DNA of 64,000 bases from Candidatus Micrarchaeota archaeon (GTDB taxonomy: Archaea; Micrarchaeota; Micrarchaeia; Anstonellales; Bilamarchaeaceae), in the NCBI GenBank assembly GCA_023129075.1, contig JAGMCT010000002.1:67077-131076 (forward strand), in the 5' to 3' direction. Position 1 is the first letter of the stretch, and every line of letters begins with the position of its first letter. Shown here one piece after another: positions 13,820-64,000 of the stretch. The position numbers and the translations under genes are program-made. The notes below the pieces were generated by a model. It was not told the origin of the DNA. It did no database searches and saw only the letters and a list, made by a program, of their open reading frames with translations.

Positions 13820-13833
13820 GAGAGTGTTGTTGA

Positions 13834-36212: not shown

Positions 36213-36725
36213 ATGTTAATCGTTTTAAGACTGGGACACAGGCTTCCAAGAGATGAAAGAATAACCACACATGTCTGTCTTGTTGCAAGGGCTTTTGGTG
36301 CTGATGAGATTATTTATTCTGGACAGAAAGACAAAGGTCTTGAGAAATCAGTAAAAAAAATTGTTTCCGATTGGGGGGGAAATTTTAAGATTGGATACAC
36401 AGAAGACCCCGTTGGATTAATAAAAGAATTCAAGGAAAAAGATTTTTACATACTCCATCTTACGATGTATGGTTTTGGAATGGAAGAGATGAAAAAAGAG
36501 AAAGGCAGGAACACCCTCATAATCATAGGCGGAGGAAAGGTTCCTTCAGAGGTTTACGGACTTGCTGATTTTAATATTTCAATAACAAACCAGCCGCATT
36601 CCGAAGTTGCTGCTCTTGCAATTACGCTTGACCGTTTATTTAAAGGAAAAGAATTGAAATTAGAATTCAAGGGAAAGAAAAGAATAGTTCCCTCTGCGAG
36701 AGGGAAAAAGCTCACTGAATTTTGA
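36213..36725 (+). CDS. trm56: tRNA (cytidine56-2'-O)-methyltransferase aTrm56 (SPOUT)
   Basis: N-terminal LRLGHRLPRDERITTHVCLVARAFGADEIIY is the aTrm56 signature. About 170 aa. Confidence 0.8.
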   Translation: MLIVLRLGHRLPRDERITTHVCLVARAFGADEIIYSGQKDKGLEKSVKKIVSDWGGNFKIGYTEDPVGLIKEFKEKDFYILHLTMYGFGMEEMKKEKGRNTLIIIGGGKVPSEVYGLADFNISITNQPHSEVAALAITLDRLFKGKELKLEFKGKKRIVPSARGKKLTEF

Positions 36726-42250: not shown

Positions 42251-42378
42251 GCCAAGGTAGCTCAGTCTGGTTAGAGCGCCAGACTCATAAGGGATTATGA
42301 GTTCTGAGGCAAATGCCTATGATTGAATAGGCGCTCTGAGTAATCTGGAGGTCGGGGGTTCGAAGCCCCCTCTTGGCA
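42251..42378 (+). tRNA. Intron-containing tRNA with anticodon CAU (elongator tRNA-Met, or tRNA-Ile2 if the UAU tRNA call is wrong). The intron is ~55 nt in the anticodon loop
   Basis: GCCAAGGTAGCTCAGTCTGGTTAGAGCGCCAGACTCATA[...intron...]ATCTGGAGGTCGGGGGTTCGAAGCCCCCTCTTGGCA. Anticodon stem CCAGA/UCUGG. T-arm GGGGG-TTCGAAG-CCCCC. No archaeal-initiator features (no A1:U72, no triple GC in the anticodon stem). Confidence 0.75.
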
Positions 42379-48600: not shown

Positions 48601-51600
48601 AAAACTCTCTGTGCTTGTAAGCCTTATCAAAAAGTCATTTCCTGTCCGCACCCTTCTCGGATAAGTCATGGTTACCTGGTTCCCTGGGCCTCCATATGTC
48701 ACAGTAATATTCTGCTCATCATATAATGTCCCATGCAGTGTTGAATCCACCCTGCATACAACATCATTTACACAATCACCATCAACACAATCCACAACTC
48801 CATCCCCATCATTATCAACATCATCATTGCATGTTGCTTCTGCAGGATTTTCGCATGCTCCTATTCCATTACAGTTTGCGTCTGCACAATCCGCATTCCC
48901 ATCATTATCATTATCCGCCCCATCAGAACAGAAATATGCATTGTTCTCATTTCCTCCAGCCACACAAATATGTGCATCGTAATCCACCAGCCATCCTACA
49001 CAATTTGTATCTCCACAATCAGTTCCCCCGCCATCAAACCTATCATAATCATTATCAAAACTATCCGCACATGAATCCCAGCTCACATTCTCTTCATCCG
49101 GGCACGGTCCGCAGTAGTCAAACTGCTGCCAGCAGTCCAAGTCATCACAGTCCGCTTTCACAGGAGGATAGGTTCCTTTATAAACATCTGTCGGCAGTGG
49201 GTCATCGTCCACCCCATTCTCACAATACGTCCAGTTCCTAAGCAGATTGTTAAAGAAAGGAGTCGCCCCAGTCGGGTCATATTCCATGTCAAGACACATC
49301 TCAAACGGATTGTTCGGATTCTGAACCCCTGTACAATTCATATCCCCGCAGTCAACCCCTCCAGATGCATTCACAATCCACGGACCACCTCCCCAAAAGT
49401 TTGCAGGATTTGTCCATTTATATGCATCCATATCATTATCCACATCATCAAAACACCATGAATCCTGAACATTTTCAACTGCAGGAACCGCCCCATCAAA
49501 CTGGCAGTCATAATCATCATAATCTCCATCATTTACGTATACAATCCCATAATACGCCAGATAAGCAGAAGGATTGTTTCCCCATCCAGGATTCGGCATC
49601 CCGCCTGCATTCCCATCATAATCATTATCAAATCCATCATTACAGGTAAGCTCTCTGCTCAATTCACAGGTATTTCCGCCTCCCATTACCGTAGTGTTGC
49701 AATCCTCATCCGGATACCTGTCGCTTCCATACCCGTAATAACCTCCCCATTCACAATCCATTCCTGCCCCATAACTATTGTTTATTGCATACCCAAATAT
49801 TCCTGCTTCCAGCCATTTATCCCAGTCATTATCTACACCATCATCACACTGCACCCCAACTTCAGTAAATATAGTAAAGTTCTGCTGGCAGAAAAACCTG
49901 CAGTCATACTCTGCATCATTATATCCACCCCCTCCCTGCAATTGACAATCCAATAAATTATACATATCATTATCAAAATTGTCATCACACGTAAGTTCTC
50001 TTCCATACTCACACCTATGATAAGGAGGAGTAGGCTCTGTCACCAAGTTGCAGTCCAAATCCCTGCAGTCCACCAAACTCAATCCTGGATTCACATGCCC
50101 CCAATTCGAATCCTCCATAGCCCAGTCATTATTATACTCATCAAAACAACTCTCATTCCCCAGCAGTTCACTTGCATAACCGCACAGCCCATAGGTAAAT
50201 GCACCAATATAATCATTCCATGCAGAAGGCCCCCAGCTTGCATTACAATCCAAATCATAACAATCATAAGAAGACTCGTAAAAACAATTCTGCTCATTCC
50301 CTGCACAGTTCAGATAATCAAAGTCTGCATTCTCAGTATCGTTGCATGAGCCCCAGTTCACCCCCTCAACCCAGATATCATCCTCATGTTCATTTGTTGA
50401 GTTCCATTTTCCCCCAGGGCTTCCCCCATAGCTCTCATTATCAAAATAAATAGGCACACTAACTGTTTCAGAATATACTGTAATCCCCTGCACATATGTC
50501 ACAGTAATATTTATCTCATACCCCTGGCTCATATCTATTGAACCCGGGTCCGCAAAACTCAAGTTGAATGTTGTATCTATCTTTGCAATCGTCTGGTCAT
50601 TGTCAAATGATTTTAGTATAACCTCATTCTGCCTTGTGTTCGCAGGCCCAAGAGAATCTGTTAATATAGGATTACTATTCTTATCAATAAAATAAAGCAG
50701 TTTCCCTTCATTTGCTGTCGCTCCCGGCGCATACTTATTAACCTGCTCAATATCCGGGAACCCCTCAACATTTACTGTTGTAAGATAACTATTTCCTGCA
50801 TTTATCTGCCATGCCCTAATTCTCATCTTGAATGTTCCGTCCGGCATTGAATGCATAGTATACCATATATTAGTGCTGAATGTTACTGCAGTGCTCTGCT
50901 CCTTTCCAATATCCCCAGCAGGTATATTTACAGCCAGCGTTCCATGCGAACCCGAAGGAGAATAATACAAACTTGAATTAGCAAATGCCTGTTTCACCAA
51001 ACAAGAATATGTAATCCCCCTGCAGTCCGAATCAAAGCAGTCCACAAAGGTATCATCCTCAGCAAAATCCGCAAACCCAGGCGCCCCAATTGCAGAATCT
51101 ACCCCATCATTGCACCATTCCTCCACAGAAATCCCATTATATTTTGTAACAGAATAGGTAACATCCCCAGGCCCATCCGCCTTTACAGTATTCCTAAAAT
51201 ACTGCGCCTCAATACTCTTTCCGTTGAATGCATTTGCTATATCCGCAGAGCTCCAGTTCAAAGGATGCACATGTATTCTCCAGTTTGTCTTATAGCTCTC
51301 TTTTACTGTTCCCCCTCCATCTATTACCTCGCATTTATCTATCTCCCACGGCACATAAATAGAGGTATTCCCTCCCATGCTTGTATTTATGGAATCCGTT
51401 ATCTGCAGGGAATAATTAAGCGAAACATTCTCACTATTTATCCCCCCCGCCCCAATGGTTCTGTTCAGGAAAAATCTTGTGCAGCTGCTGTTGTAAGGAT
51501 GGTCCCCGCAGTCCGACTGATTTATCCAGCATCCAACTTTATCCCCGGCATTCGCAGTCATATTTTCCAATATAATAGTAAAATTATACTTCAACCCTTC

Positions 51601-52335
51601 TCCAGTATGCGGGTCCCCTGCATCATATGCATAATAAACTCCCTCAGGAAATGTTGTATTCTTTTCTATACATTCATACTGAACATCTGCAAAGAGCCAG
51701 TAATCCACTGTCTGCCCTGCAAGGCTTCCATTCACCGGAAGTATGAGCTGGTAATCGCTTGTTGTTCCGTTCCAATCCGGCTTATCATCCTCATATGTTG
51801 CAGAAAGCACAAACCTATTTTCTGCATCCTGTAGATATCCTGCCCTGAAAATACCTGGTTTGGTATATGCAGAGGGAACATTACTCACTTCCCCAAAGCT
51901 GAAATTAAATGTTGAGACAAAAGTAAATGTATTGCTCGCATTATCCGCATCTGTTCCCGCGTTCATAAAAGCATTAAGTGCAATGAGATTTCCTGCACTA
52001 AAAGGAGTTGCTGCACTGCTTTCATTTACTGCATAGATAGTAACATTAATTATATTATAACCTGTTATTACGCCCCCGACCGCAGGACAATCCGGCTCTT
52101 TTGCCGTCACATCCAAATAGGTTATGTTCTCTCCTTCAGCCAGCACATGATAGTAATCCGGCCCACCACCTATTGAGATATTCCCATAAAAACCAGCCCA
52201 TCTCTGCGTAGTATCATTTCCCTGAAGGTTTACTGCAGTTATATTTCCCCCCTCAGTCAAATCTACATTCGCCCCATAAAGTAGAGAACAGAGCAGCACA
52301 AACACCAATACAAATCGCATGCCTGCATATTGCAT
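45619..52335 (-). CDS. Giant (2238 aa) secreted cell-surface protein. It has an N-terminal shared domain, extensive Cys/Asp-rich TSP3-like putative Ca-binding repeats (CxDxxDNDxDG...DCxDxDC), a C-terminal Cys-rich EGF-like cluster, and 3-4 C-terminal TM helices plus a poly-K tail
   Basis: Single uninterrupted ORF. Signal peptide MRFVLVFVLLCSLLYGA. At least 9 CxDGxDNDxD repeats. C-terminal TMs (ILWTAMVILFILNLHLL, GIGILFIPILFSLPFLFGWSL, IIFFMVLLLW). Confidence 0.75.
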   Translation of the reverse strand: MQYAGMRFVLVFVLLCSLLYGANVDLTEGGNITAVNLQGNDTTQRWAGFYGNISIGGGPDYYHVLAEGENITYLDVTAKEPDCPAVGGVITGYNIINVTIYAVNESSAATPFSAGNLIALNAFMNAGTDADNASNTFTFVSTFNFSFGEVSNVPSAYTKPGIFRAGYLQDAENRFVLSATYEDDKPDWNGTTSDYQLILPVNGSLAGQTVDYWLFADVQYECIEKNTTFPEGVYYAYDAGDPHTGEGLKYNFTIILENMTANAGDKVGCWINQSDCGDHPYNSSCTRFFLNRTIGAGGINSENVSLNYSLQITDSINTSMGGNTSIYVPWEIDKCEVIDGGGTVKESYKTNWRIHVHPLNWSSADIANAFNGKSIEAQYFRNTVKADGPGDVTYSVTKYNGISVEEWCNDGVDSAIGAPGFADFAEDDTFVDCFDSDCRGITYSCLVKQAFANSSLYYSPSGSHGTLAVNIPAGDIGKEQSTAVTFSTNIWYTMHSMPDGTFKMRIRAWQINAGNSYLTTVNVEGFPDIEQVNKYAPGATANEGKLLYFIDKNSNPILTDSLGPANTRQNEVILKSFDNDQTIAKIDTTFNLSFADPGSIDMSQGYEINITVTYVQGITVYSETVSVPIYFDNESYGGSPGGKWNSTNEHEDDIWVEGVNWGSCNDTENADFDYLNCAGNEQNCFYESSYDCYDLDCNASWGPSAWNDYIGAFTYGLCGYASELLGNESCFDEYNNDWAMEDSNWGHVNPGLSLVDCRDLDCNLVTEPTPPYHRCEYGRELTCDDNFDNDMYNLLDCQLQGGGGYNDAEYDCRFFCQQNFTIFTEVGVQCDDGVDNDWDKWLEAGIFGYAINNSYGAGMDCEWGGYYGYGSDRYPDEDCNTTVMGGGNTCELSRELTCNDGFDNDYDGNAGGMPNPGWGNNPSAYLAYYGIVYVNDGDYDDYDCQFDGAVPAVENVQDSWCFDDVDNDMDAYKWTNPANFWGGGPWIVNASGGVDCGDMNCTGVQNPNNPFEMCLDMEYDPTGATPFFNNLLRNWTYCENGVDDDPLPTDVYKGTYPPVKADCDDLDCWQQFDYCGPCPDEENVSWDSCADSFDNDYDRFDGGGTDCGDTNCVGWLVDYDAHICVAGGNENNAYFCSDGADNDNDGNADCADANCNGIGACENPAEATCNDDVDNDGDGVVDCVDGDCVNDVVCRVDSTLHGTLYDEQNITVTYGGPGNQVTMTYPRRVRTGNDFLIRLTSTESFDQVKMFIGNKNGFGLSHGQGLNLAGMTKEGPDAGIFETFSYEDNAGQAVIKLWDDDHLGTTYNGFDVTIRIPTTSAYSYADVGSYKKFEYSHSINPGGATSENFPYYLILDDDAPNITRIVTEPGVKDEIVYNGAVWMGVLANDSDTANTNFHDGEIYGCYYNATGPGGYSIGETYDSNCKFNIGSMVDDGTYYVSVRARDPAGNYGLMNTTSFVVDLKPAYVSGSFSLSDVWYNISDTIDVSAQFRTDDSTVIANCQVYYKKSGGVDQLAGNLPAVVVGTDRVECSGTINAPAQDEMYELYINVTDAEGDEVSSASKVFFLCANLTAQGTGTNGEKWTCLFADMDDDGYKDSCDIPLSVRILTVYPDENMGTRDYERDTPINITIENSDVQDFIITYENSSEVVIRWYVDGAEYNETSGTNDTSTYAWNVDGLALQEYEIVVVLETLYEEVNQTWYVTLEEAGGEEDHKKKHKIEIISAEPEEGIIYKNTLVAVVIENTGNYDEKDIFVELVTPPSITGSDGLIQEIEKKESGEIALGVYPTELGEYLIKVLADNGRADDYYEFYFEVIPQCYNDSDCAEDEFCNGIICEEKRELEEDCERNAMCKSNLCDEVCIECEENGDCEWNEYCNEGMCIEIDCACGIILNHDCREYECCEGIPGYECKETEFCINNSCVPKEMDLKIIEGELIEGKTVIMEIINNRGEPVPFAHVYNEDTDTYAGEGGIARVIISYKGEIIVEKENYLDLKKIFEIIRKGFVQTEDEIYLNERTWIVIVDSKGNPIPNAVVVINRVGYTFEKEGAYITLDEYGGYIVTDEAGKLETAKICTGPMCLGKVEYQTNEKGEIYLTFSEPGEYLVQAHKDGYAIMDEGLSIGEFERMCSGPLCLGLYNIPKSSAWILWTAMVILFILNLHLLGRKYKKKKGRMLGIGILFIPILFSLPFLFGWSLYGNWLAGNIFNPCSMLDVEIIFFMVLLLWRKKKKELKGEKKKRKS

Positions 52336-52542: not shown

Positions 52543-55500
52543 ATGTTGGGTTCGAAAAGTGGCTTAGGATTAGCACTATTGCTATTCATTCTTGCTTTAC
52601 TCCAACCAATCTCCGACACCACTTTCACAAAAACAATAAACATTTCCTACTTCGAGAGTATGGAATCTGATTTCTCTAATCTGCAGGTTTTTTCGATTTC
52701 CGACGAAGGCGCAGAACCCCTTGTTTATACTATTCTGGAGTATTCCCCAGGAGAATGGGCGCTCCTGGAAATTTCAATCCCTTATGACAGCGAAAGATTA
52801 CTTTTCACCCATTTCTTACTGGATAATTACGAGCCGGTAACCATCAGCGGAAAAGAAGTAAAATACTATTTTGAGAAAATAAATGGAGCTGGATACATAA
52901 GATTAAAGGATTCTTTTATAGAAAACATCACGATCCACAATATCTCCGCTTCCTCAAACATAGAGATATTCAAAGACATTATTGTTTCCAATGATGAGCT
53001 TGAAAACCTAAGAGCATTTTCCTTTAACCCAAAGAATATAGAATCCGCAGAGATATCTATAATTGCAAAAGGTTATTTCCTTTTCAAATGCAAAGACTGG
53101 AATTACACCACCCAGTCCTGCCAAGGAGAATGGGAATACCAGTTCCCCATAACCCCTGGAAAACCCTACACAATCCACCTCAATTCTTTAGACCCCGGCT
53201 ATGCTGAATCAGGCCCGTTCATTGCTTTTGACGACCGCGGTCTAACCGTAACCTCCAATGTTTATTCTTCAGATAATGTTTATGCAAACAAAAAGGCCAG
53301 TATTAGTTATTGGGTAAACGGCACTTGGAACATGGACATTCTTGGAGACCTAAACAGCGCCAACTTCAAATGTGAATTAAAGGTAGATTTAGCAGCCTTA
53401 GGAACCCTTTACCATGAATGGTTCAACTCTTCCTCTTCTTCCTGGAAAACAATCTGCACAAAATCAACCACTATTCAAATTACAGATACCACTCATAGTT
53501 GTGATGTTTCTTCTGATTTGAATACATCTGAATCCTCCCATACTCTGAGATGCAGGATTGCTTTCCTTCTTTTAAAAGATATTTCAATAGATTATATTTC
53601 TCTTGATTCTGATTTCCAATGTGTAAACCTCTCCAATCCCTCAACCTATCAAAACAGAGTAGTAAACATGAGCGGAATCTACTACATAAACGATAACGTA
53701 ATCCTATGCACAGATAATTATTCAACCACTGATGATTTAATCCGAATAAATGCTTCTTCCATTACTTTAGATTGCGGAGGTTCAACATTAGATGGAGATG
53801 ATGCGGGGAGTGATTACGGGATAGATACACAGCAGAATAATTACTTAGAAATAAAAAATTGCATAATTACTGATTTCAGAAGCGGTATTTACACAGATGC
53901 TAATTACAGTAATTTCACCAACAACACTGTTTATTCTAATATTGAAGGTTTTTCTGTTGTATCCTCTTCAAACAACAGTTTCACAAACAATACTGCACAT
54001 AATAACCTTAAATGCGGTTTTTCCCTCTCATCATCCTTAAACAACACTCTCACAAACAATACGGCCAATTCCAATCAGGATGGTTTTCACCTTCAATCCT
54101 CCTCTATTTACAATACTCTCATAAACAACACAGCGCAGGAAAATCTTGGATGTGATTTAGTAATTGCAATTTCCACAGCAGGAGACTGCAACAATCTTAT
54201 TGAGAATAATACTGGTTCTGGCGGCAGGCCAATTTTGTACGCAAATGAATCAGTCACATGGAGCAATTTAGAAGCATCAGAGGTTATTCTATGCAATGCA
54301 GATTATTCAGTCATCACTAATGTAACTGTAAAGGGTTCTGATGCTTTAGATAACAATTATTTCTTACTCTACCATTCAGATAACCTTTCAATATCCGATT
54401 CAAGCTCCGTAAATAATCTTTATGGTTTTTACGCTAGTTATTGCTCGCATAACAATTTCACCAATAATACTGCCAATTCAAACAATAATTATGGCTTCTA
54501 CATTCGCTACGGTTCTAATAATGCTTTCACTAATAATACAGCCAATTACAATAATTATGGCTTCTATATTCGTTCTTCACCCAGCAACATTTTCACAAAT
54601 AATACTGCTGATTCAAATGATAACTATGGCATTTACCTTTATTCTACCTCCGACAATAAGCTGACTAATAACACTGCCAGCATGAACGGTCGGTGTGGTT
54701 TTACCCTTTACTCCTCTTCAAACTATAATACCCTGGCTAGCAACACTGTTAGCTCAAATGAAAGGTCTGGTTTCTATTTTTACTCTTCCTCAGGCAATAA
54801 TATATCCAACTCAATAATTATAAACAACTCACAGCGTGGAATGCACCTGTACGGAAATTCAGATAATAATACATTTGAAAATATAACACTACATGGTAAT
54901 GCCCAGTCTTCTTCTTATTATGAGATTTACTTTGACCGCAGCGGAGTAATTTACCCAGAATACAATACCTTTACAGATATAAAACTCTACAATTCCACAA
55001 GATACATTGGATTTGACGACCAAACCCATACAAACCAAAACAACTTCACCAACCTTTCCATATGCTACAATTCCACAATAGGCTGCATAAATTGGGACTT
55101 CCTTAATCTCACTTATGCAAACCTTGCAAATGCAACAACAATAATCCTTGACCCAGAATTCATTTCCCTAAACACCTCAAACACAGGAGCAGCCCAATTC
55201 AATTCCTCTGCAAACATAACTATTTATGCTGAGGACTGCGCACACCCAATTTACAAAGCTTCAAATTTTCCAGATTCAAGAGATTCAATTCTCTCTTCCG
55301 GCTCTAAAGTTAACCCCATATACAATACCTGTTCAAATAATATTGCAGTATTTTCCACAGTAAATGATTTCTCAGGATATACAAAAGGATATGTTGGCTG
55401 TGTAAACCTTTCCAATCCCTCAACCTACCAAAACAAAGTAGTAAACATGAGTGGAATCTATTACATAAATGATAATGTAACCCTATGCACAGATAATTAT

Positions 55501-58500
55501 TCAACAACTGATGATTTAATCCGAATAAACGCCTCTTCTATTACTTTAGACTGCAACGGTTCAACATTAGATGGAGATGATGCAGGGGATGATTATGGAA
55601 TAGATACACAAGGAAATGATTACCTGGAGATAAAAAATTGCATAATTACTGATTTTGAAAGTGCAATATCTGCAACAGGCACAACCTACAGCAATTTCAC
55701 CAATAACACAGCCATTTCAAATACTGATGGTTTTATTGCTTCTTCTTTTAATTTTAATATTCTCTTAAACAATACCGCTACTTCAAACACAAAACATGGT
55801 TTCCACATTTCTTCTTCTTCCAATAATATTTTCACCAACAACACAGCCCAGCATAATGGCTATGGTTTCGGCATCTATACCACATCCGAGTATAATACCT
55901 TCACTAACAACATAGCTTATAGCAATAATGCTGGCGGTTTTTATCTTCGCACTTCAACCTACAGCATTTTCACTAACAACACAGCCAGTTCAAATAGTAA
56001 TGGTTTTTATTTTTACTCATCTTCAAGCAATAATATATCCAACTCAATAATTATAAACAATTTAAATCGTGGAATATACCTGTACAGAAATTCAGATAAT
56101 AATACATTTGAAAATATAACACTACATGGCAATGCCCAATCTTCTTCTTATGAGATTTACTTTGACCGCAATCTTGCGGATTATCCTGAACACAACACCT
56201 TTACAGATATAAAACTCTACAATTCCACAAGATACATTGGATTTGACGACCAAACCCATACAAACCAAAATAATTTCACCAACCTTTCCATATGCTACAA
56301 TTCCACAATAGGCTGCATAAATTGGGACTTCCTCAACCTCACTTATGCAAACCTTGCAAATGCAACAACAATCATCCTTGACCCAGAATTCATTTCCCTA
56401 AACACCTCAAATGCCGGAGCAGTCCAGTTCAATTCCTCTGCAAACATAACCGTAGAGGTCGTTTCCTGCATAAAACCTGCCGAATTCATAATAAGAAGAT
56501 TAACAGAATTCCCGCAAAGCAAAAACATCATACTGACCAGCGGGCAGGATTATGATCCAACATCTATATCCTGCCCTTCTTCCACATCCATTAAGTTCAA
56601 TATTTCTTCCTTCTCAGGCTTTGCTCCATTGAAAGCAGGAATCACAGATTGCTATACCATAGCTCATCCCGGAGACTACTGGATAGTAGATGACATAGAC
56701 GCAAGCTCTGTAAATGAAGTTTCTGCACGCGCCTGCATAAATATATCTTCAAGTAATGTCAACCTCAACCTCAACGGCTTCTCAATAGCAAACGGTTCAA
56801 ACATAAGCGGCATCTTTGCAAACGGTTCAAGCTCATATCAGTATACTAATATAACCATCCGTGATGGAACAGTAACGAACTTCACCCACAACAGCACCAT
56901 CGGCCCGGCATATATCGGAGGAATCATATTTACTTATATAGAGAATTCAAGTCTCTCAAACCTATCAGTAAGCTATGCTTCAAAACAAACCCCTGCAAAG
57001 GTTTCCACATATGGAATATTCTTTGATGGGAGCTCTTATAACTCCATTCTCAACCTTACGGTGCACAACAACGAACAAAATGGAATTAGAATTGAATCCT
57101 ATTCAAACTACAATAATTTCTCAGATATAATATCCTTAAGTAACATAGGGACTGGAATCCGAATCTCCTCAAGCCTAAACAACAGAATAGACCAAAGCAC
57201 CATATACAGCAATTCAGGAAGAGGAATCCATCTAGACTCCTCAAATTACACCATGGTCTTAGATACCCTTACTTATGATAACAGCTATGGCATCTCCTTA
57301 ACCTCAACCTCAAACAACACCCTCACCAACATCACCAGCCACACTAATTCCAACGGCGGTTTTTACTCTTCTGCAAGCTCCGGAAACAACATAACAAATA
57401 TACTATCCTACAACAATACCCAAGAGGGTTTCTTCATCACAACCTCCCATTTCAATAAATTGGAAAACATAACAACCTACACTAATTCCAGAAGAGGTTT
57501 AGTGCTTTTTTTGAGTAATTACAACACTCTTGAAAATATCACTACATACAATAACCCCTGGTACGGCATTTTTATCTCTTCTGCCTCCAACAACAACCTC
57601 ATCAACATTACCTCCTATAACAATTCCCAACACAGCCTTTACATATACGCAAATTCAGACAATAATATATTCACAGATTTAACATTCTATGAGGATGGGA
57701 AATCTCCTTCCTATTATGAGGTTTACTTTGGCCGCAATGGAGTAATTTACCCGGAATACAATACCTTTACAGATATAAAACTCTACAATTCCACAAGATA
57801 CATTGGATTTGACGACCAAACCCATACAAACCAAAATAATTTCACCAACCTTTCCATATGCTACAATTCCACAATAGGCTGCATAAATTGGGACTTCCTC
57901 AACCTCACTTATGCAAACCTTGCAAATGCAACAACAATAATCCTTGACCCAGAATTCATTTCCCTAAACACCTCAAATGCCGGAGCAGTCCAGTTCAATT
58001 CCTCTGCAAACATAACTATTTATGCTGAGGACTGCGCACACCCAATTTACAAAGCCTCAAATTTCCCAGATTCAAGAGATTTAATTCTCTCTTCCGGCTC
58101 TAAAGTTAACCCCATATACAATACCTGTTCAAATAATATTGCAGTATTTTCCACAGTAAATGATTTCTCAGGATATACAAAAGGATATGCTGGCTGTGTA
58201 AACCTTTCCAATCCCTCAACCTATCAAAACAAAGTAGTAAACATGAGCGGAATCTATTACATAAATAATGACGTAATTCTATGCACAGATAATTATTCAA
58301 CAACTGATGATTTAATCCGAATAAACGCCTCTTTCATTACATTGGACTGCAATGATTCTATTCTTGATGGAGATAATGCAGGGGGTGATGAGGGTATAAA
58401 CACACAACAGAATAATTACTTAGAAATAAAAAATTGCATAATTACTGATTTTGAAAGAGGCATATATCTATTTAATTCTACATACAATAGAATAGACAAT

Positions 58501-61500
58501 AACAATATTAGTAATTGTATTAATGCCGGAATACTAATTTCAAAGTCTTCTAATAATACCAATATAACAAATAATTTTATAACTAATACTGGCGGGGATG
58601 CAATCAAAATCGATAATTCCATATATAACTGGGTCTATAACAATACTTTAAGTAATAGTAATGGAATGGGAGTAAATTGTCTGATTTCTCCATATACAAC
58701 TATTGAACAAAACACAATCAGCATCAGCCAAATAAACGGGATATGCATAGAAAATACTTCTTATATTAATGTGATTAATAATAATATTTCAGATTCAGGA
58801 TATTTGGATATTGTAGTTGCTTATGCTCATTATAATAACATAACTTCTAATGAAATTCATAGTTTAAACGACCCCGGAGTGTTTGGAGGAATAGTCATTA
58901 CTGCACAAAGTGAGAATAATACAATAGAAAACAATGTACTTAGTGGGGATTCTACTGAAAATGGAATTGCTTTAAGTAATACTAATTATCCTACTGAGCC
59001 GCAATATCTGAAAGATTTGGGTTCTGCAAATGTTCATAACAATATCATCAATAATACAATTACTAATTACAAGAAAGGGATTTATGTTTTCAATTCCACG
59101 TTCAATACCTTCATCAGCAATAAGGTAAGCTTGAACAACGACACTGGATTTTATCTCAATATCAGTCATAATAATTCAATCTATGATAATTATTTCGCTG
59201 ACAATAATAAAAGTGTCTTTGACAACGGAAACAACTCCTGGAATACTACATACAATTGTACAGGCCCGGCGAATATAATCGGAGGCTCCTGTAGAGGCGG
59301 TAATTTCTATTCAGATTACAGCGGAATGGACAACGGAATGTCCCTTGAGCCAGGCCACAACTATTCACTGGATGGAATAGGCGACCAACCACTAAATTAT
59401 ACAATTTTAGGGGGAAGCGCAGTTGATAACTTACCCCTATCAAATAATGCTTCTCTGTATTATCTGCATAAGTGCCGTGCGACGAGTTTTTGTGATGAGG
59501 GAACCTTGTCCCTCTCGCCTCTAACATCAGAACTGGAAGTGGCGCTTTGCAGTAATTTTGTGTCATTTAGAATGAGGGAGCCAGCACTTGAAAATACCAC
59601 AATTTATATTTCAAATATATATTATCACACTTGGTTCAGAGGATACAATAACAGCAATATATCCGTGGGTTGGCAGAAATATTATAATTGGAGCAATCAG
59701 ACAGATGCCTACTTTTACCCTACTGATAAACTTGTCTCTGAGTATCTTGGCTTTCATTTGTTATCGCACATTCAATCAGCCAATATTTCATATGCCAATC
59801 CTGGCGAGATAAATGGCAATTTTGCTATCAAATGGGCGAGGTATGAATATTCCCCAATAATATGGTCAAGGTATGACAGGCCTTCTTATATTATGCTTAA
59901 TTTGCCAAGCATTGCTGTTTTGCAAAATGGGGACTCAGATGGTGATGGTTTATCGAACTATGAGGAATTAATGAATGGAACTAATCCAGTAAGCAATGAC
60001 ACTGATAGTGATGGGTTAAGCGATTATAATGAGACTCACTGGGTGACTGACCCGAATAATCCAGATGTGGATAATGATGGCTTGGTTGACGGCTCTGACC
60101 CAATGCCATGTGATACACGATATAATACTACATATAATATGTCGGCAGAAAACGGAATTGTTGAAGTAACATGCAATGCTTCAAATTCTGGTTACATTTT
60201 CCAAGATTTGAATGTAGATAATGGCGACGACTTCACGATTAGAAACTGCAGGATATTATTTAATAGCACTGATAATTCACTTGGAGATCCAAGAGGTATA
60301 ACAGTGCTGAACGGCGGACGATTGCAGATTTATAACTCAACTATAGAAACTTACAATAGAACATATTCTTGGTTGTTTGAAGTAAATGGAACGACAACGC
60401 TGGAAGATTCCACATTATTTGAAATGGTAACGATTGGCCTCCATGATAGCTCAACTTCTATTGTTAATAATTGCACGATGGCAACATGGTCTGGAGATAA
60501 TATAATTAATGGAAAGGATGGTGGTAATGACATTATAACAAATAACACATTTATGTATTGCTCTAATGAAGGCACAGGATACCCACATAGGATAATTACA
60601 CTTAGTGACACCTATAACATTACTATTTCAAACAATAACTTTTTAGTGTCCTGCGGGAGTATTGGCGGAATTCAAATATCTGACAATTCACATGATAATA
60701 AAATTATAAACAACGTTGTGCAGAACACTGTTTGTTTTCTTGATGGACCTCATGCTAATAGTAATCTAAGTGATAACACAATAGCATATAACAACGTGTC
60801 AACCAGTCTTCTCGGTGCAGTAATATTATGGGGCGATAATACTAAAAGCAGAATAATTGGCAATAGACTTTCCGGAAGGATAGAAGCGAACTTTGCTGAT
60901 GATGCGGTTATAGAAAATAACACAATATATCATGATGGCACCTTCAATTATCGCGGGGTAACACTGGATCAGAGTGACAATGCCACCATTGTTGGCAATC
61001 ACATCTATGACAGAGATATCGCTATTATGGTTACTGAAAGCACCAACATGAACATAAAAAATAATAGAATTCATAATAATACGCAGCATGGTATTTATGT
61101 CTGGGATATAGATAACAGCTCGGTTACGAACAATACAATTCATAATAGCTCGATGGCAGGAATCTTTCTCAATGCAAGTTCCAATAACATCATCACTAAT
61201 AATAATATATCCCTAAATGAAGAAGATGGCATCTCGCTTATTAATAGTTCTTACAATAACATCACAGAAAATACACTCTTTGATAATTCAGATAATGGAA
61301 TAATACTTGAGGAAGAATCAGAGCATAACCTAATACAAAACAATGCAGTGAATGAATCAACCGTGGCCAATGTCATTATTGTAGGCAGCAACTATAATAA
61401 TATAATTAGTAATAATCTCTCTAACGCTAAAGTTGCTGAGATGATTGTAATATTCTCTGGGTGGATTACTATATCTGATAATGAGCTAGTTAGTTCTTCT

Positions 61501-64000
61501 TCTATGTTTGGCGGGATTATTCTCTCAGGTATGAGTTCCTATTGTACTATTAATAATAATAATATTTCAGGCAGTTTAAATGGAAATGGAATTAGCCTAA
61601 CGGAAATAAGGTCACCACCAGCATCAGATTATATTCCTTCATCATGTATGTACAATAATATCACCAACAACACAATTACTAATTATCAGAAAGGGATTGA
61701 TGTCTTCAATTCCACGTTCAACATTTTCACCAGCAATAATGTAAGCTTGAACAACGACACCGGATTTTATCTCAACATCAGCCATAATAATTCAATCTAT
61801 AATAATTATTTCGCTGATAATAATAAAAGCGTCTTTGACAACGGCAACAACTCCTGGAATACTACATACAATTGTACGATACTCGGCTACACCAATATAA
61901 TCGGCGGGAACTGCACGGGAGGGAATTACTGGAGTGATTATAATGGAACAGACAATACTGGTGACGGCATTGGCGATACCGAACTCCCTTGGCAGGGCTC
62001 TTCGTCCATTCAGAATGGCGGTGACTGGCTGCCTCTGGTGCCGGTTGCTGGACCATCTCCATTTCTTGTAAGATTCACACCCCCCACCCCGTCAAATGGC
62101 ACAACTGTCATGTCACCCCCCATAACAATAAATGTAAGCATATCAGGAGCCGCTGCTTTGAATGAAGTTAACTTTAGCTGGGATAATACAACTCATGGAA
62201 TGTACAATAGCAGTTTAATCCTCATGTATAATTTTGATAACATCCCAATCATAGGAGATAATAATACATACGTAAAAGACATAAGCAACAGCAGTTATGA
62301 TGGAGTTCTAATAGGAGATGCACATTATGTAACCGGAAGATACGGAGAGGCAATAAATTTTGATGGGGATGGAGATTATCTTGCCATCAAAAACTTACAC
62401 TTTGACACAACAGGAGAGATTGGAAATCTTACGGTATGCGTTTGGTTCAAGACTAAAGAATCAGGCGGAGGGACCTTTGATAACTGGGCGTTTGTAGATT
62501 TTGACCGAAGCGAATATTTCAATTTCTTTATCCGGCCAAACGGGCTTTTAGGCTTTGGAACGACCAGTTGCGGCGGTTGCACACATGACTTCTACGGAAG
62601 CACTCCTGCCAATGATGATGAATGGCATTTCGGCTGTGCTGTATTTGATTCTTTAGATACATATGACAAAAAATTATATTTAGATGGAAAGCTGGATAAT
62701 AAAGTTGATGCTTATTCAACAGGGATAACCTTAGGAACAGGAACTACCAGGTACGGATTTATTGGAGACGGTTCTGAAGCTGCAGTTTTCAATGGAACTA
62801 GAAACGAGTTGTACTATAACGGAACAATCGATGAAGTAAGAATTTGGAATATGAGTTTAAGCGCAGACCAAATACAACAACAGTATTTTTCCAATTTATA
62901 CAAATATGATGCAGATAAATGGCAGTTGTACATTGACCAAGAAGACTCAGACGGCACATATGATTATTATGCCTGCGCTTCTGACCTATCCAACGATTTT
63001 AATTGCACTGAAATAAGAACCATAACAATAGACATGTTCCCTCCTGTAATAACAATCATAAGCCCTGAAGCAAAAACATATATTGCAGATATGATAGACT
63101 TTAATGTAAGTTTAAATAAACCTGGAGACTGGTGCGGATACAGCTTGGACGGCCCTGAGAAATACAATGAAATGGTTGCATTCTGGAAGTTTGAAAAAAC
63201 TGCCAAAGATTTTGCAGGAAGCAATCATGGAACAGCCTATGGTGTTACAGATACCGCTGGATACAGCGGTTTTGCTTATAATTTTGACGGCGATGATTAC
63301 ATCAGCATACCCAATTCATATGATATCAACCTGGGAGTTCATGACAAGAGAACAATAAGCGCATGGTTCAAAGTAAATGATAAGGATTTAGATGCCAAGC
63401 AGGTAATATATGAAGAGGGAGCAACAGTAAGAGGATTGAATATATATGTATACAACGGCTCCCTTTATGTTGGAGGCTGGAATGAGCCAGCTGCTGAGAG
63501 CAATTGGGATGGAACCTGGATGAATACAAGCAGTATATCCAGCAACACCTGGCATCATGTAGTGGTGCGCCTTGATGGAACACCAGCAGTCCAAATTGAT
63601 GCACTAAAAGGCTATCTGGACGGCGCCAATTTTGCAAACGGCAGCGGTTCACAATTATGGTCCCACAGCGGTGACATCAGTATAGGAAGAAATGGAGATA
63701 CAAAATTCCATGATGGAGATGATGGCAGTTTAGGTGAATATTTCAATGGAACAATAGATGAGGTAATAATTTACAATGATGCGCTTACAGATACTCAAAT
63801 AGAAAACATATATAATAGTACATTGGTTTCAATGGACAAATACAGCAATACATATTTCAACTATACAAAAAACATGTCTGGTAAAGCACCTCATATTGTT
63901 GTATTCTACTGCAATGACACGCACGGAAATATGGGAAAATCCAATAAAAGATATTTTGCAGTAGATACTGTTCCGCCGGCAATTTCATTAGAAGCTCCCC
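52543..64000 (+). CDS. Second giant secreted surface protein (>3819 aa visible; no stop before the window end, hence missing from the ORF track). It has a signal peptide, many right-handed beta-helix (PbH1-like) NNT-rich rungs, TSP3/dockerin-like DxDxDG Ca-binding repeats (~59.9-60.1 kb) and two LamG/ConA-like jelly-roll domains (~62.3-63.8 kb)
   Basis: Frame 1 (pos mod 3 = 1) is open from ATG 52543 to 64000, checked by manual translation at nine separate points (52.5, 54.4, 56.5, 59.5-60.1, 61.0, 62.4, 64.0 kb). N-terminal MLGSKSGLGLALLLFILALLQPIS. Motifs IDEVRIWNMSLSADQI and IDEVIIYNDALTDTQI (LamG). DSDGDGLSNYEEL...DVDNDGLVDGSDP. Confidence 0.75.
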   Translation, partial: MLGSKSGLGLALLLFILALLQPISDTTFTKTINISYFESMESDFSNLQVFSISDEGAEPLVYTILEYSPGEWALLEISIPYDSERLLFTHFLLDNYEPVTISGKEVKYYFEKINGAGYIRLKDSFIENITIHNISASSNIEIFKDIIVSNDELENLRAFSFNPKNIESAEISIIAKGYFLFKCKDWNYTTQSCQGEWEYQFPITPGKPYTIHLNSLDPGYAESGPFIAFDDRGLTVTSNVYSSDNVYANKKASISYWVNGTWNMDILGDLNSANFKCELKVDLAALGTLYHEWFNSSSSSWKTICTKSTTIQITDTTHSCDVSSDLNTSESSHTLRCRIAFLLLKDISIDYISLDSDFQCVNLSNPSTYQNRVVNMSGIYYINDNVILCTDNYSTTDDLIRINASSITLDCGGSTLDGDDAGSDYGIDTQQNNYLEIKNCIITDFRSGIYTDANYSNFTNNTVYSNIEGFSVVSSSNNSFTNNTAHNNLKCGFSLSSSLNNTLTNNTANSNQDGFHLQSSSIYNTLINNTAQENLGCDLVIAISTAGDCNNLIENNTGSGGRPILYANESVTWSNLEASEVILCNADYSVITNVTVKGSDALDNNYFLLYHSDNLSISDSSSVNNLYGFYASYCSHNNFTNNTANSNNNYGFYIRYGSNNAFTNNTANYNNYGFYIRSSPSNIFTNNTADSNDNYGIYLYSTSDNKLTNNTASMNGRCGFTLYSSSNYNTLASNTVSSNERSGFYFYSSSGNNISNSIIINNSQRGMHLYGNSDNNTFENITLHGNAQSSSYYEIYFDRSGVIYPEYNTFTDIKLYNSTRYIGFDDQTHTNQNNFTNLSICYNSTIGCINWDFLNLTYANLANATTIILDPEFISLNTSNTGAAQFNSSANITIYAEDCAHPIYKASNFPDSRDSILSSGSKVNPIYNTCSNNIAVFSTVNDFSGYTKGYVGCVNLSNPSTYQNKVVNMSGIYYINDNVTLCTDNYSTTDDLIRINASSITLDCNGSTLDGDDAGDDYGIDTQGNDYLEIKNCIITDFESAISATGTTYSNFTNNTAISNTDGFIASSFNFNILLNNTATSNTKHGFHISSSSNNIFTNNTAQHNGYGFGIYTTSEYNTFTNNIAYSNNAGGFYLRTSTYSIFTNNTASSNSNGFYFYSSSSNNISNSIIINNLNRGIYLYRNSDNNTFENITLHGNAQSSSYEIYFDRNLADYPEHNTFTDIKLYNSTRYIGFDDQTHTNQNNFTNLSICYNSTIGCINWDFLNLTYANLANATTIILDPEFISLNTSNAGAVQFNSSANITVEVVSCIKPAEFIIRRLTEFPQSKNIILTSGQDYDPTSISCPSSTSIKFNISSFSGFAPLKAGITDCYTIAHPGDYWIVDDIDASSVNEVSARACINISSSNVNLNLNGFSIANGSNISGIFANGSSSYQYTNITIRDGTVTNFTHNSTIGPAYIGGIIFTYIENSSLSNLSVSYASKQTPAKVSTYGIFFDGSSYNSILNLTVHNNEQNGIRIESYSNYNNFSDIISLSNIGTGIRISSSLNNRIDQSTIYSNSGRGIHLDSSNYTMVLDTLTYDNSYGISLTSTSNNTLTNITSHTNSNGGFYSSASSGNNITNILSYNNTQEGFFITTSHFNKLENITTYTNSRRGLVLFLSNYNTLENITTYNNPWYGIFISSASNNNLINITSYNNSQHSLYIYANSDNNIFTDLTFYEDGKSPSYYEVYFGRNGVIYPEYNTFTDIKLYNSTRYIGFDDQTHTNQNNFTNLSICYNSTIGCINWDFLNLTYANLANATTIILDPEFISLNTSNAGAVQFNSSANITIYAEDCAHPIYKASNFPDSRDLILSSGSKVNPIYNTCSNNIAVFSTVNDFSGYTKGYAGCVNLSNPSTYQNKVVNMSGIYYINNDVILCTDNYSTTDDLIRINASFITLDCNDSILDGDNAGGDEGINTQQNNYLEIKNCIITDFERGIYLFNSTYNRIDNNNISNCINAGILISKSSNNTNITNNFITNTGGDAIKIDNSIYNWVYNNTLSNSNGMGVNCLISPYTTIEQNTISISQINGICIENTSYINVINNNISDSGYLDIVVAYAHYNNITSNEIHSLNDPGVFGGIVITAQSENNTIENNVLSGDSTENGIALSNTNYPTEPQYLKDLGSANVHNNIINNTITNYKKGIYVFNSTFNTFISNKVSLNNDTGFYLNISHNNSIYDNYFADNNKSVFDNGNNSWNTTYNCTGPANIIGGSCRGGNFYSDYSGMDNGMSLEPGHNYSLDGIGDQPLNYTILGGSAVDNLPLSNNASLYYLHKCRATSFCDEGTLSLSPLTSELEVALCSNFVSFRMREPALENTTIYISNIYYHTWFRGYNNSNISVGWQKYYNWSNQTDAYFYPTDKLVSEYLGFHLLSHIQSANISYANPGEINGNFAIKWARYEYSPIIWSRYDRPSYIMLNLPSIAVLQNGDSDGDGLSNYEELMNGTNPVSNDTDSDGLSDYNETHWVTDPNNPDVDNDGLVDGSDPMPCDTRYNTTYNMSAENGIVEVTCNASNSGYIFQDLNVDNGDDFTIRNCRILFNSTDNSLGDPRGITVLNGGRLQIYNSTIETYNRTYSWLFEVNGTTTLEDSTLFEMVTIGLHDSSTSIVNNCTMATWSGDNIINGKDGGNDIITNNTFMYCSNEGTGYPHRIITLSDTYNITISNNNFLVSCGSIGGIQISDNSHDNKIINNVVQNTVCFLDGPHANSNLSDNTIAYNNVSTSLLGAVILWGDNTKSRIIGNRLSGRIEANFADDAVIENNTIYHDGTFNYRGVTLDQSDNATIVGNHIYDRDIAIMVTESTNMNIKNNRIHNNTQHGIYVWDIDNSSVTNNTIHNSSMAGIFLNASSNNIITNNNISLNEEDGISLINSSYNNITENTLFDNSDNGIILEEESEHNLIQNNAVNESTVANVIIVGSNYNNIISNNLSNAKVAEMIVIFSGWITISDNELVSSSSMFGGIILSGMSSYCTINNNNISGSLNGNGISLTEIRSPPASDYIPSSCMYNNITNNTITNYQKGIDVFNSTFNIFTSNNVSLNNDTGFYLNISHNNSIYNNYFADNNKSVFDNGNNSWNTTYNCTILGYTNIIGGNCTGGNYWSDYNGTDNTGDGIGDTELPWQGSSSIQNGGDWLPLVPVAGPSPFLVRFTPPTPSNGTTVMSPPITINVSISGAAALNEVNFSWDNTTHGMYNSSLILMYNFDNIPIIGDNNTYVKDISNSSYDGVLIGDAHYVTGRYGEAINFDGDGDYLAIKNLHFDTTGEIGNLTVCVWFKTKESGGGTFDNWAFVDFDRSEYFNFFIRPNGLLGFGTTSCGGCTHDFYGSTPANDDEWHFGCAVFDSLDTYDKKLYLDGKLDNKVDAYSTGITLGTGTTRYGFIGDGSEAAVFNGTRNELYYNGTIDEVRIWNMSLSADQIQQQYFSNLYKYDADKWQLYIDQEDSDGTYDYYACASDLSNDFNCTEIRTITIDMFPPVITIISPEAKTYIADMIDFNVSLNKPGDWCGYSLDGPEKYNEMVAFWKFEKTAKDFAGSNHGTAYGVTDTAGYSGFAYNFDGDDYISIPNSYDINLGVHDKRTISAWFKVNDKDLDAKQVIYEEGATVRGLNIYVYNGSLYVGGWNEPAAESNWDGTWMNTSSISSNTWHHVVVRLDGTPAVQIDALKGYLDGANFANGSGSQLWSHSGDISIGRNGDTKFHDGDDGSLGEYFNGTIDEVIIYNDALTDTQIENIYNSTLVSMDKYSNTYFNYTKNMSGKAPHIVVFYCNDTHGNMGKSNKRYFAVDTVPPAISLEAP
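53628..53880. repeat. Partial (~250 bp) additional copy of the second half of the repeat module
   Basis: gtaaacctctccaatccctcaacctatcaaaacagagtagtaaacatgagcggaatctactacataaa... matches 55408.. and 58198.. Confidence 0.75.
54871..55680. repeat. About 0.8-kb intragenic repeat module, copy 1 (near-identical to 57661..58470)
   Basis: Long identical runs seen by eye (e.g. ctctacaattccacaagatacattggatttgacgaccaaacccatacaaaccaaaa..., ...gtaaacctttccaatccctcaacctaccaaaacaaagtagtaaacatgag...). Confidence 0.8.
56101..56450. repeat. Partial (~350 bp) third copy of the first half of the repeat module
   Basis: Same sequence as 54871-55220 and 57661-58010. Confidence 0.75.
57661..58470. repeat. About 0.8-kb intragenic repeat module, copy 2
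   Basis: See copy 1. About 95% identity by eye, including the encoded LYNSTRYIGFDDQTHTNQNNFTNLSICYNSTIGCINWDF... and CVNLSNPSTYQNKVVNMSGIYYIN... Confidence 0.8.

What the first reader, a model, noticed from the sequence alone, without database searches (positions are those of the whole stretch)
53628..58470. Near-identical 0.25-0.8 kb repeat modules inside the giant plus-strand gene, a recombination substrate for surface variation
Two 0.8-kb blocks (54871-55680 and 57661-58470) are about 95% identical at the DNA level. Further partial copies lie at 56101-56450 and 53628-53880. All are in frame and encode the same beta-helix and linker segment (LYNSTRYIGFDDQTHTNQNNF...CVNLSNPSTYQNKVVNMSGIYYIN...). 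Such high nucleotide identity implies recent intragenic duplication or ongoing homogenisation by gene conversion. It predicts copy-number and length polymorphism of the surface protein between cells or strains. The effect would be like phase or antigenic variation, or could tune adhesin length. The same repeats generate the recurring spurious antisense ORFs (MLNNYLCIGL...) in the track.
Basis: seen in the sequence. Interest (0 to 1): 0.6.

Follow-up and report, generated by a model that had tools for sequence, protein, structure and literature searches.

The report
Repeat modules in giant archaeal surface protein
A giant, probably cell-surface protein gene of a tiny cold-seep archaeon (Micrarchaeota) contains several in-frame copies of a 0.3-0.8 kb segment that look partly homogenised by gene conversion; this is a familiar property of large repetitive adhesin-like genes, and there is no evidence yet that it drives surface variation.

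Summary
The repeats are real. Blocks 54850-55669 and 57646-58465 align without gaps, in frame, at 91.1% identity. A 600-nt core is 95.8% identical. Partial copies lie at 56077-56450 and 53620-53952.

The repeats sit in a gene that starts at 52543 and encodes at least 4,977 aa. It has multiple beta-helix and LamG domains and many N-glycosylation sequons. NCBI labels the neighbouring genes Candidatus Micrarchaeota.

Each block is a module junction: the last beta-helix rungs, a roughly 120-aa uncharacterised linker domain, and the cap of the next beta-helix. The same head-body-linker design recurs in 139 proteins elsewhere.

Synonymous divergence is about 0.13 in the core and 0.5-0.85 in the flanks. 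The copies are mosaics of each other. This fits gene-conversion patches laid over older module duplications.

A second assembly of the same sample differs from the window at only 21 sites in 26.7 kb. All 21 lie in these repeats and all switch to a paralogue's base. This is either conversion polymorphism or assembler ambiguity; short reads cannot decide.

I found no length variants, silent cassettes or switch elements. Programmed antigenic or phase variation is therefore unsupported.

The parts
52543..64000 (+). Giant gene, cut off by the window end. ATG at 52543, then an N-terminal hydrophobic signal or anchor segment. The product is at least 4,977 aa (P0001), and P0001 is itself cut at a contig end.
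   Evidence: The frame is open from 52501 to the window end. P0001 is 100% identical over 3,819 aa. Pfam on P0001 finds 12-14 NosD/Beta_helix stretches, 4 Laminin_G_3 and one TSP3_bac. There are 242 N-X-S/T sequons against 126 expected from composition, and 82 Cys.
53620..53952 (+). Head copy 1: the N-terminal cap and first rungs of beta-helix module 1 (CVNLSNPSTYQNR...). The family profile matches 53614-53889 here.
   Evidence: 83.6% identical to 55399-55734; 53620-53876 is 87.5% identical to 58195-58451. Family profile hit over positions 122-213.
54850..55669 (+). Junction block, copy 1. It holds the last rungs of module 1, the linker domain (55030-55398) and the head of module 2 (55399-55668).
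   Evidence: An AlphaFold model of 54985-55815, built with a 27-sequence family alignment, has mean pLDDT 88.9. It shows beta rungs, a small beta-rich domain with one helix, then new beta-helix rungs.
54940..55539 (+). High-identity core of copy 1, paired with 57736-58335. It is the candidate gene-conversion tract.
   Evidence: 95.8% identical in the window, with dS 0.13 and omega 0.15. It is 99.2% identical in the ENA assembly.
56077..56450 (+). Partial copy: the last rungs of module 2 and the first half of its linker. The whole linker spans 56260 to about 56620, and its second half has diverged.
   Evidence: 89.9% identical to 57640-58016. It shares a 176-nt identical run with copy 3. Profile hit at 56260-56889.
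57646..58465 (+). Junction block, copy 2. It holds the last rungs of module 3, the linker (57826-58194) and the head of module 4 (58195-58464).
59038..59308 (+). A further in-gene repeat (C-terminal end of a beta-helix domain), paired with 61654-61930. It is not part of the finding.
   Evidence: 85.6% identity over 277 nt. Family D5 is 91% over 224 nt.
61654..61930 (+). Second member of the pair that starts at 59038.
62059..64000 (+). First copy of a roughly 780-aa C-terminal repeat unit (LamG and Ig-like region). Its partner lies beyond the window.
   Evidence: P0001 aa 3173-3951 matches aa 4200-4977 at 67-97.5% amino-acid identity in 200-aa chunks. P0001 ends inside the second copy.
55310..55507 (-). 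Antisense ORF MLNNYLCIGL... (65 aa), with copies at 58106-58303(-) and 53480-53725(-). I take these as by-products of the repeated sense sequence.
   Evidence: They lie wholly inside the giant ORF, which is the frame supported by domain hits and by purifying selection.

Best explanation
The gene encodes a giant modular protein of a Micrarchaeota (DPANN) archaeon. It is most likely extracellular and N-glycosylated. It is built from 'head - body - linker' modules strung end to end. The head is a roughly 90-aa N-cap and the body here is a right-handed beta-helix. The linker is a roughly 120-aa cysteine-containing beta-rich domain with no Pfam or PDB sequence match.

The repeats in the finding are the junctions between modules: end of body, linker, then the next head. 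The modules arose by old intragenic duplications. Background DNA identity is about 70-80%, as in relatives.

On top of that, 0.25-0.6 kb patches have been copied non-reciprocally between junctions by ectopic gene conversion through homologous recombination. This produces cores of 96% identity or more with sharply lower-identity flanks, and mosaic relationships among the three or four copies. Differences between copies are mostly synonymous, so every copy is kept functional.

The same identical runs would allow unequal crossovers that add or remove whole modules in frame (410, 522, 593 or 932 aa). No such length variant has been observed, so this is passive repeat dynamics of a large adhesin-like gene, not a demonstrated variation system.

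What is shown: the repeats, their frame, the module anatomy, the heterogeneity of dS, the mosaicism, and the disagreement between assemblies. What is inferred: gene conversion as the cause, the surface location, and an adhesive or carbohydrate-binding role.
For: Repeats and frame.

Heterogeneous synonymous divergence: dS is 0.13 in the core and 0.49-0.85 in the flanks, and omega is 0.15-0.26. Fisher tests give p = 8e-6 for synonymous differences and p = 3e-5 for third positions. The longest identical run is 107 nt (permutation p = 0.0015).

Not a tandem duplication: the similarity is an 820-nt patch inside a 2796-nt spacing. The rest of the interval does not match at the DNA level.

Mosaics: the three-way site pattern changes along the tail alignment (33 runs against 78.5 expected, p < 1e-5) and along the head alignment (21 against 31.6, p = 0.0007).

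Module anatomy and family: the representative search finds 139 proteins, 31 of them below 1e-30, with 1-8 junctions each. In the giants P0001-P0004, P0006 and P0008, most or all copies have their nearest relative inside the same protein.

Relatives' repeats are mostly 69-81% identical at the DNA level. This sets the background level.

Structure: pLDDT 88.9. Five cysteines are invariant or nearly so.

Surface indicators: a twofold sequon excess; LamG, TSP3 and beta-helix domains. Large N-glycosylated LamG surface proteins are reported as a common DPANN feature (bioRxiv 10.1101/794461; PMC6642349).
Against: The sequence comes from 2x150 Illumina reads (PMC9357000). The tail copies of modules 2 and 3 share a 176-nt identical run, longer than a read.

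A second assembly of the same sample differs at 21 sites. All are in the repeats and all take a paralogue's state. That assembly has a 99.2% core with a 580-nt identical run. The exact identity values and part of the mosaic therefore depend on how the assembler phased the copies.

Part of the runs-test signal in the tails comes from regions where one copy simply stops being homologous. Staggered partial duplications could give similar patterns.

No orthologue close enough to polarise the changes was found.
Confidence: 0.6

Rival explanations
1. Recent partial duplication only. A 0.6-0.8 kb junction segment was duplicated or inserted recently. The identity gradient reflects different ages of nested duplications, with no later exchange between copies.
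For: Family members show internal duplications of many ages: 69-81% DNA identity in relatives, and a 100% identical repeat of about 550 aa in P0004. So duplication is frequent in this family.
Against: A duplication that lands exactly on a pre-existing homologous junction, in frame, replacing it, cannot be told apart from gene conversion. The alternating nearest-neighbour pattern among three copies needs several nested events.
Confidence: 0.2
2. Assembly artefact or mis-phasing. The modules exist, but the near-identity, the mosaic pattern and possibly the module order are products of short-read assembly. The causes would be bubble collapse, path switching in shared k-mers, or mixing of strains.
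For: All 21 differences between the two assemblies are paralogue swaps inside the repeats. In the tail core, 10 of 10 go to the 2-of-3 majority state, as bubble popping would give. The ENA scaffold, the Logan contig and P0001's contig all end inside repeats. The 176-nt identical run exceeds the read length and MEGAHIT's k of 141.
Against: Two assemblies agree on order and length with no gaps over 26.7 kb. In the window version, all identical runs between copies 1 and 3 are 107 nt or shorter, so single reads can bridge them. Differences between copies are biased to synonymous sites (omega 0.15-0.26), which errors would not produce. Collapse needs copies that are already very similar. The tract 58056-58278 follows one haplotype even against the per-site majority at 4 sites.
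Confidence: 0.12
3. Active variation system. The repeats are used at high frequency to generate length or sequence variants of a host-attachment fibre within the population. This would be functionally like antigenic or phase variation.
For: The paralogue-swap differences between assemblies of one sample could be co-existing conversion variants. Every possible crossover is in frame. Homologues differ widely in module number, from 1 to 8 junctions.
Against: There is no length variant. There are no donor cassettes in the 64 kb. There are no tandem or simple-sequence switches or inverted-repeat switches. Relatives carry mostly old repeats. The dS of 0.13 in the core argues against very frequent homogenisation.
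Confidence: 0.08

Closest known systems
Repeat-bearing bacterial surface adhesins whose long intragenic repeats evolve in concert and vary in number (for example streptococcal alpha C/Rib, staphylococcal SasG/Aap, Bap/Esp). Named from my own knowledge, not tested here.
   Same: A large secreted protein with long in-frame repeats of high nucleotide identity. Homologous recombination between repeats is the accepted cause of homogenisation and of copy-number change. The gene is hard to assemble.
   Different: Here the repeats are not tandem. They are 0.3-0.8 kb junction patches separated by 1.2-2.8 kb of diverged beta-helix. Identity is 91-96%, not about 100%. The host is an archaeon. Copy-number variation has not been seen.
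Large LamG/ConA-like, N-glycosylated surface proteins of DPANN archaea, including nanohaloarchaeal SPEARE proteins (PMC6642349; bioRxiv 10.1101/794461).
   Same: A DPANN lineage, multi-thousand-aa length, LamG domains, many N-glycosylation sequons, and a predicted extracellular adhesion role.
   Different: No serine-protease or restriction-endonuclease domain was detected in the 4,977 aa available. The architecture is dominated by NosD/PbH1 beta-helix modules with a linker domain that has no Pfam match. The C-terminus is unknown.
Cassette-based antigenic variation by gene conversion (Neisseria pilE/pilS, Borrelia vlsE, Mycoplasma genitalium MgPa repeats). Named from my own knowledge.
   Same: Non-reciprocal transfer of sequence patches between homologous segments of a surface-protein gene.
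   Different: Those systems use silent donor cassettes outside the expressed gene, and donors and recipient differ in hypervariable regions. Here the exchange is between expressed modules of the same ORF and makes them more alike, not more diverse.
Right-handed parallel beta-helix carbohydrate-active proteins (GH87 glucanase, K1 capsule lyase, phage tailspikes).
   Same: The fold of the module bodies and heads. The top Foldseek PDB hits are 6k0v, 7w1c and 2vbk, and Pfam finds NosD/Beta_helix.
   Different: The matches are weak (best E = 4.7e-4, TM 0.31 or less). No catalytic residues were assessed. There are many beta-helix domains in series rather than one.

Membership tests
Intragenic repeats under concerted evolution (gene conversion) in a surface protein | Long in-frame repeats with nucleotide identity far above that of the surrounding paralogous sequence | tested here: met
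   The core is 95.8% identical and the flanks 76-80%. Other module parts have no DNA-level match.
Intragenic repeats under concerted evolution (gene conversion) in a surface protein | Low synonymous divergence in the tract relative to its flanks, and mosaic phylogenetic signal among copies | tested here: met
   dS is 0.13 in the core against 0.49-0.85 in the flanks, p about 1e-5. Runs tests give p < 1e-5 and p = 0.0007. Caveat: short-read phasing.
Intragenic repeats under concerted evolution (gene conversion) in a surface protein | Copies within a genome more alike than copies at the same position in orthologues | tested here: inconclusive
   In the giant family members, most or all copies have their nearest neighbour inside the same protein. 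However, the library is clustered at 50% identity and no close positional orthologue was found.
Copy-number-variable repeat adhesin (length polymorphism between strains) | Different repeat or module numbers in closely related strains or cells | tested here: not met
   The window and the ENA scaffold are collinear over 26.7 kb with no gaps. Only two assemblies of one sample were available. Distant homologues do differ in module number.
Cassette-type antigenic variation system | Silent donor cassettes outside the expression locus | tested here: not met
   blastn and tblastn of the block against the whole 64-kb window find copies only inside the gene. The one exception is a 34% match to the head in the 465-aa beta-helix protein. 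The rest of the genome could not be searched.
Phase-variable gene (simple-sequence or invertible-promoter switch) | A homopolymer or short tandem tract in the 5' region, or inverted repeats flanking the promoter together with a recombinase | tested here: not met
   TRF finds only PbH1-rung periodicity (66 nt, 69% matches) and one 18-nt, 2-copy unit. Only weak 14-16 nt inverted repeats lie near the start.
SPEARE proteins of Nanohaloarchaeota | Serine protease, adhesion and intracellular type III restriction-endonuclease domains, with a C-terminal transmembrane anchor (PMC6642349) | tested here: inconclusive
   LamG adhesion domains are present. No protease or restriction-enzyme domain is found in 4,977 aa. 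The C-terminus is missing from every assembly, so the anchor and any intracellular part cannot be judged.
PbH1/NosD right-handed parallel beta-helix repeat proteins | Multiple PbH1 rungs detected by profile | tested here: met
   PF05048 at 9.8e-126 with 13 stretches, PF13229 at 3.3e-112, and TIGR03804 with 14 stretches.
NosD (nitrous-oxide reductase maturation) | Full-length match above the NCBIfam subfamily cutoff | tested here: not met
   TIGR04247 scores 138.6 bits against a cutoff of 300. Only the fold is shared.

The most novel reading that the evidence does not exclude
The junction repeats may be the working substrate of a population-level diversification mechanism in an episymbiotic DPANN archaeon. 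Frequent intragenic conversion and unequal crossover would continually reshuffle and resize a host-attachment fibre. The 21 paralogue-swap differences between assemblies of one sediment sample would then be co-existing variants. This would be an archaeal counterpart of bacterial antigenic or adhesin variation, acting on a previously undescribed head-body-linker module family.
Probability: 0.12. Interest if true: 0.6.

Novelty: new member of a known kind. Interest (0 to 1): 0.3.

Why it matters
Practical point: this gene, and probably its whole family, cannot be trusted base by base in short-read MAGs. Three assemblies break or disagree exactly at its repeats, so its true length and module number are unknown.

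Biological point: it adds a Micrarchaeota example to the giant LamG-bearing surface proteins thought to mediate DPANN-host attachment. It also shows a recurring head-body-linker module design with a linker domain that has no Pfam or PDB sequence match.

If the paralogue swaps prove to be real polymorphism, it would be direct evidence of ectopic gene conversion shaping an archaeal surface protein in a natural population.

As it stands, the repeat phenomenon itself is ordinary for large adhesin-like genes.

Tried and rejected
- The search for homologous proteins found nothing, either with the junction block or with the unique N-terminal domain. That index evidently lacks these giant or cut proteins, so no orthologues from 90% clusters could be obtained.
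- The genome-contig scan gave only a 38% head match in a Woesearchaeota MAG.
- The first metagenome-contig scan found nothing. A 5-sequence alignment gave five relatives at 43-53% identity, too distant to polarise changes.
- The look-up of encoding contigs for P0001 and for P0144 (the NCBI version of the neighbouring gene) returned nothing. P0144 turned out to be the same protein with a start codon 5 residues later. The NCBI contig of 134.5 kb could therefore not be read.
- Single-sequence AlphaFold of the block failed (pLDDT 34.8). The run with a family alignment worked.
- The PDB profile search and a Pfam scan of the linker alone found nothing.
- Foldseek against PDB gave only weak generic beta-helix hits.
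- A tandem duplication of the full 2796-nt unit was rejected, because similarity covers only 820 nt of it.
- NosD function was rejected because the score is far below the subfamily cutoff.
Full report
**1. The observation**

The + strand frame is open from 52501 to the end of the window. It starts with ATG at 52543.
- 54850-55669 vs 57646-58465: 91.1% over 820 nt, no gaps, offset 2796 nt.
- 56077-56450 vs 57640-58016: 89.9%.
- 53620-53952 vs 55399-55734: 83.6%.
- 53620-53876 vs 58195-58451: 87.5%.

Identity is uneven along the main pair. A 600-nt core (54940-55539) is 95.8% identical. The first 90 nt are 76% identical and the last 129 nt are 80%.

It gives 29% if taken literally and 90.1% at the true offset.

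All offsets are multiples of three. The quoted peptides each occur three times. The antisense ORFs exist as described.

**2. What the gene is**

The window carries intron-containing tRNAs. Its proteins are identical to NCBI entries named Candidatus Micrarchaeota archaeon.

The neighbouring gene places the sequence in sample SAMN18200505 / SRR13892594. This is a South China Sea Site-F cold-seep metagenome (RS_17), sequenced as Illumina 2x150 and assembled with MEGAHIT (PMC9357000).

The exhaustive representative search returned P0001. It has 4,977 aa and is 100% identical to the window protein over 3,819 aa. P0001 itself ends inside a repeat.

Pfam on P0001 finds 12-14 NosD/Beta_helix stretches, four Laminin_G_3 domains and a TSP3 calcium-binding repeat. 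NosD proper is excluded: 138.6 bits against a cutoff of 300.

The protein has an N-terminal hydrophobic segment. It has 242 N-X-S/T sequons against 126 expected from composition, and 82 cysteines. These features fit the large N-glycosylated LamG surface proteins described as common in DPANN archaea (bioRxiv 10.1101/794461; SPEARE proteins, PMC6642349). Surface location and an adhesion or carbohydrate-binding role are inferred, not shown.

**3. Anatomy of the repeat**

A profile built from the block finds an orderly pattern in the 139 homologues.
- A 'head' lies near the N-terminus.
- Then come repeated units of body, linker and next head.
- The series often ends with a linker alone.

In the window protein:
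- Heads lie at 53620-53889, 55399-55668 and 58195-58464. The head of module 3 is of a divergent type.
- Linkers lie at 55030-55398, 56260 to about 56620, and 57826-58194.

It holds the last beta-helix rungs, a linker of about 120 aa, and the cap and first rungs of the next beta-helix.

An AlphaFold model of 54985-55815, made with a 27-sequence family alignment, has pLDDT 88.9 and shows exactly this layout. The linker has no Pfam hit and no PDB sequence relative. Five cysteines are invariant or nearly invariant. Foldseek finds only weak matches to beta-helix glycoside hydrolases, lyases and tailspikes.

In some homologues the body is not a beta-helix but a different repeat region rich in 'WNWT' motifs. 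So head and linker act as connectors for different cargo domains.

**4. How the repeats arose**

The similarity is an 820-nt patch within a 2796-nt spacing. The remaining roughly 2 kb of each interval does not match at the DNA level. A simple tandem duplication is excluded.

Synonymous divergence is 0.13 in the core and 0.49-0.85 in the flanks. Omega is 0.15-0.26. The contrast is significant, with Fisher p = 8e-6 for synonymous differences and 3e-5 for third positions. Protein-level selection would not keep silent sites identical.

The three tail copies are mosaics. Going 5' to 3':
- Upstream, copies 1 and 2 group together.
- Then copies 1 and 3 group together.
- In the shared core, copies 2 and 3 are identical for 176 nt while copy 1 differs at 9 sites.
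- Downstream, copies 1 and 3 group together again.

This gives 33 runs against 78.5 expected. Part of that signal comes from places where one copy stops being homologous. The three heads show a similar patchwork (p = 0.0007).

Internal repeats in relatives are mostly 69-81% identical at the DNA level. I take this as the background age of module duplications.

The most economical reading is old module duplications plus recent non-reciprocal patch transfer (ectopic gene conversion) between homologous junctions. Nested partial duplications are the main biological alternative. When a duplication replaces a homologous segment in frame, the two amount to the same thing.

**5. The assembly caveat, and the only variation seen**

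A second assembly (ENA scaffold_58, L001) matches the window over 26,717 nt with no gaps and 21 mismatches.
- All 21 lie in the repeats (55041-55197, 56373, 58056-58278).
- Each changes the base to that of a paralogous copy.
- In that assembly the main pair is 93.5% identical, the core is 99.2%, and there is a 580-nt identical run.

In the tail core, 10 of 10 changes go to the 2-of-3 majority state, as bubble collapse would produce. The 58056-58278 tract instead follows the copy-1 haplotype, even against the per-site majority at four sites.

Every accessible assembly stops at one of this gene's repeats.
- The Logan contig ends at 53862, the last unique 31-mer before the k-mers shared with 58408.
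- The ENA scaffold ends inside the C-terminal repeat.
- P0001's contig also ends inside the C-terminal repeat.

The 176-nt run shared by copies 2 and 3 is longer than a read.

So the repeats are certainly real. But the exact identities, and part of the mosaic, depend on phasing. The 21 differences are either assembler collapse, which I think somewhat more likely, or co-existing conversion variants.

**6. Is it a variation system?**

Identical runs of 55-176 nt are adequate substrates for homologous recombination. That statement rests on established knowledge of minimal homology lengths and was not tested here. Any crossover would add or remove 410, 522, 593 or 932 aa in frame.

Against an active system:
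- No length difference is seen between the two spanning assemblies.
- No donor cassettes exist elsewhere in the window.
- No simple-sequence or invertible-switch signatures are present.
- Most relatives carry old repeats.

Module number does differ widely among distant homologues, from 1 to 8 junctions. In the largest proteins, most or all junction copies have their nearest relative inside the same protein, and the closest pair is 84-93% identical in four of them. P0004 has a repeat of about 550 aa at 100% identity. So module gain is a recurrent evolutionary process in the family. Evolutionary-scale expansion is supported; programmed or high-frequency variation is not.

**7. Comparison and verdict**

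The closest known phenomenon is the concerted evolution of long repeats in bacterial surface adhesins. The closest known proteins are the giant LamG-bearing DPANN surface proteins. SPEARE membership cannot be claimed, because no protease or restriction domain is found in 4,977 aa and the C-terminus is unknown. Cassette-type antigenic variation is not met.

I rate the finding as a new member of a known kind, with interest 0.3. The more novel reading is ongoing recombinational diversification of a host-attachment fibre in a DPANN archaeon. It is not excluded, and I give it about 0.12.

Noticed in passing
window 62059-64000 and beyond (P0001 aa 3173-3951 vs 4200-4977): A second, larger repeat system in the same gene. 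A C-terminal unit of about 780 aa (LamG plus Ig-like region) is duplicated with up to 97.5% amino-acid identity. Only the first copy is in the window, and P0001's contig ends inside the second copy.
   Followed up: partly
window 59038-59308 and 61654-61930: Another in-frame repeat pair at 85.6% DNA identity. It encodes the C-terminal end of two later beta-helix domains (…NNDTGFYLNISHNNSIY.NYFADNNKSVFDNGNNSWNTTYNC).
   Followed up: partly
window 55030-55398, 56260-56620 and 57826-58194; 139 proteins: The linker domain of about 120 aa (NNFTNL…FVSL…SANITI…C…GFP…C…FSGY) has no Pfam or PDB sequence match. With the 'head', it defines a rare family of giant modular proteins. Only 139 representatives out of 1.84 billion match. 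In some members the bodies are a different repeat type, rich in 'WNWT' motifs, instead of beta-helices.
   Followed up: partly
L004 (ENA scaffold_15 of the same metagenome), gene 4691-18511: P0002 (4,606 aa) shares the window protein's unique N-terminal domain and has 8 heads or junctions. It lies in a different, non-syntenic context. It is either a paralogue in the same genome or a relative in the same sample. The 3' end of its gene is 88.7% identical over 650 nt to the 3' end of the adjacent upstream giant gene.
   Followed up: partly
window 45619-52335 (-): A divergently transcribed 2,238-aa neighbour with only weak Big_13, CARDB and 'acidic double-disulfide repeat' matches. It is probably a second large surface protein. 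The two genes share a 207-nt intergenic region.
   Followed up: no
window 36712-38109 (-): A 465-aa NosD/Beta_helix protein whose N-terminus has a 34% match to the 'head' cap of the giant protein's modules.
   Followed up: no
window 42251-42378 (+) and 7939-8040 (-): Two tRNA genes of 128 and 102 nt that Rfam detects and ARAGORN misses. They presumably contain introns, which is consistent with an archaeal genome.
   Followed up: no
whole giant protein (P0001): N-X-S/T sequons occur at about twice the frequency expected from composition (242 against 126). Asn is 13% of residues. This suggests very dense N-glycosylation.
   Followed up: partly
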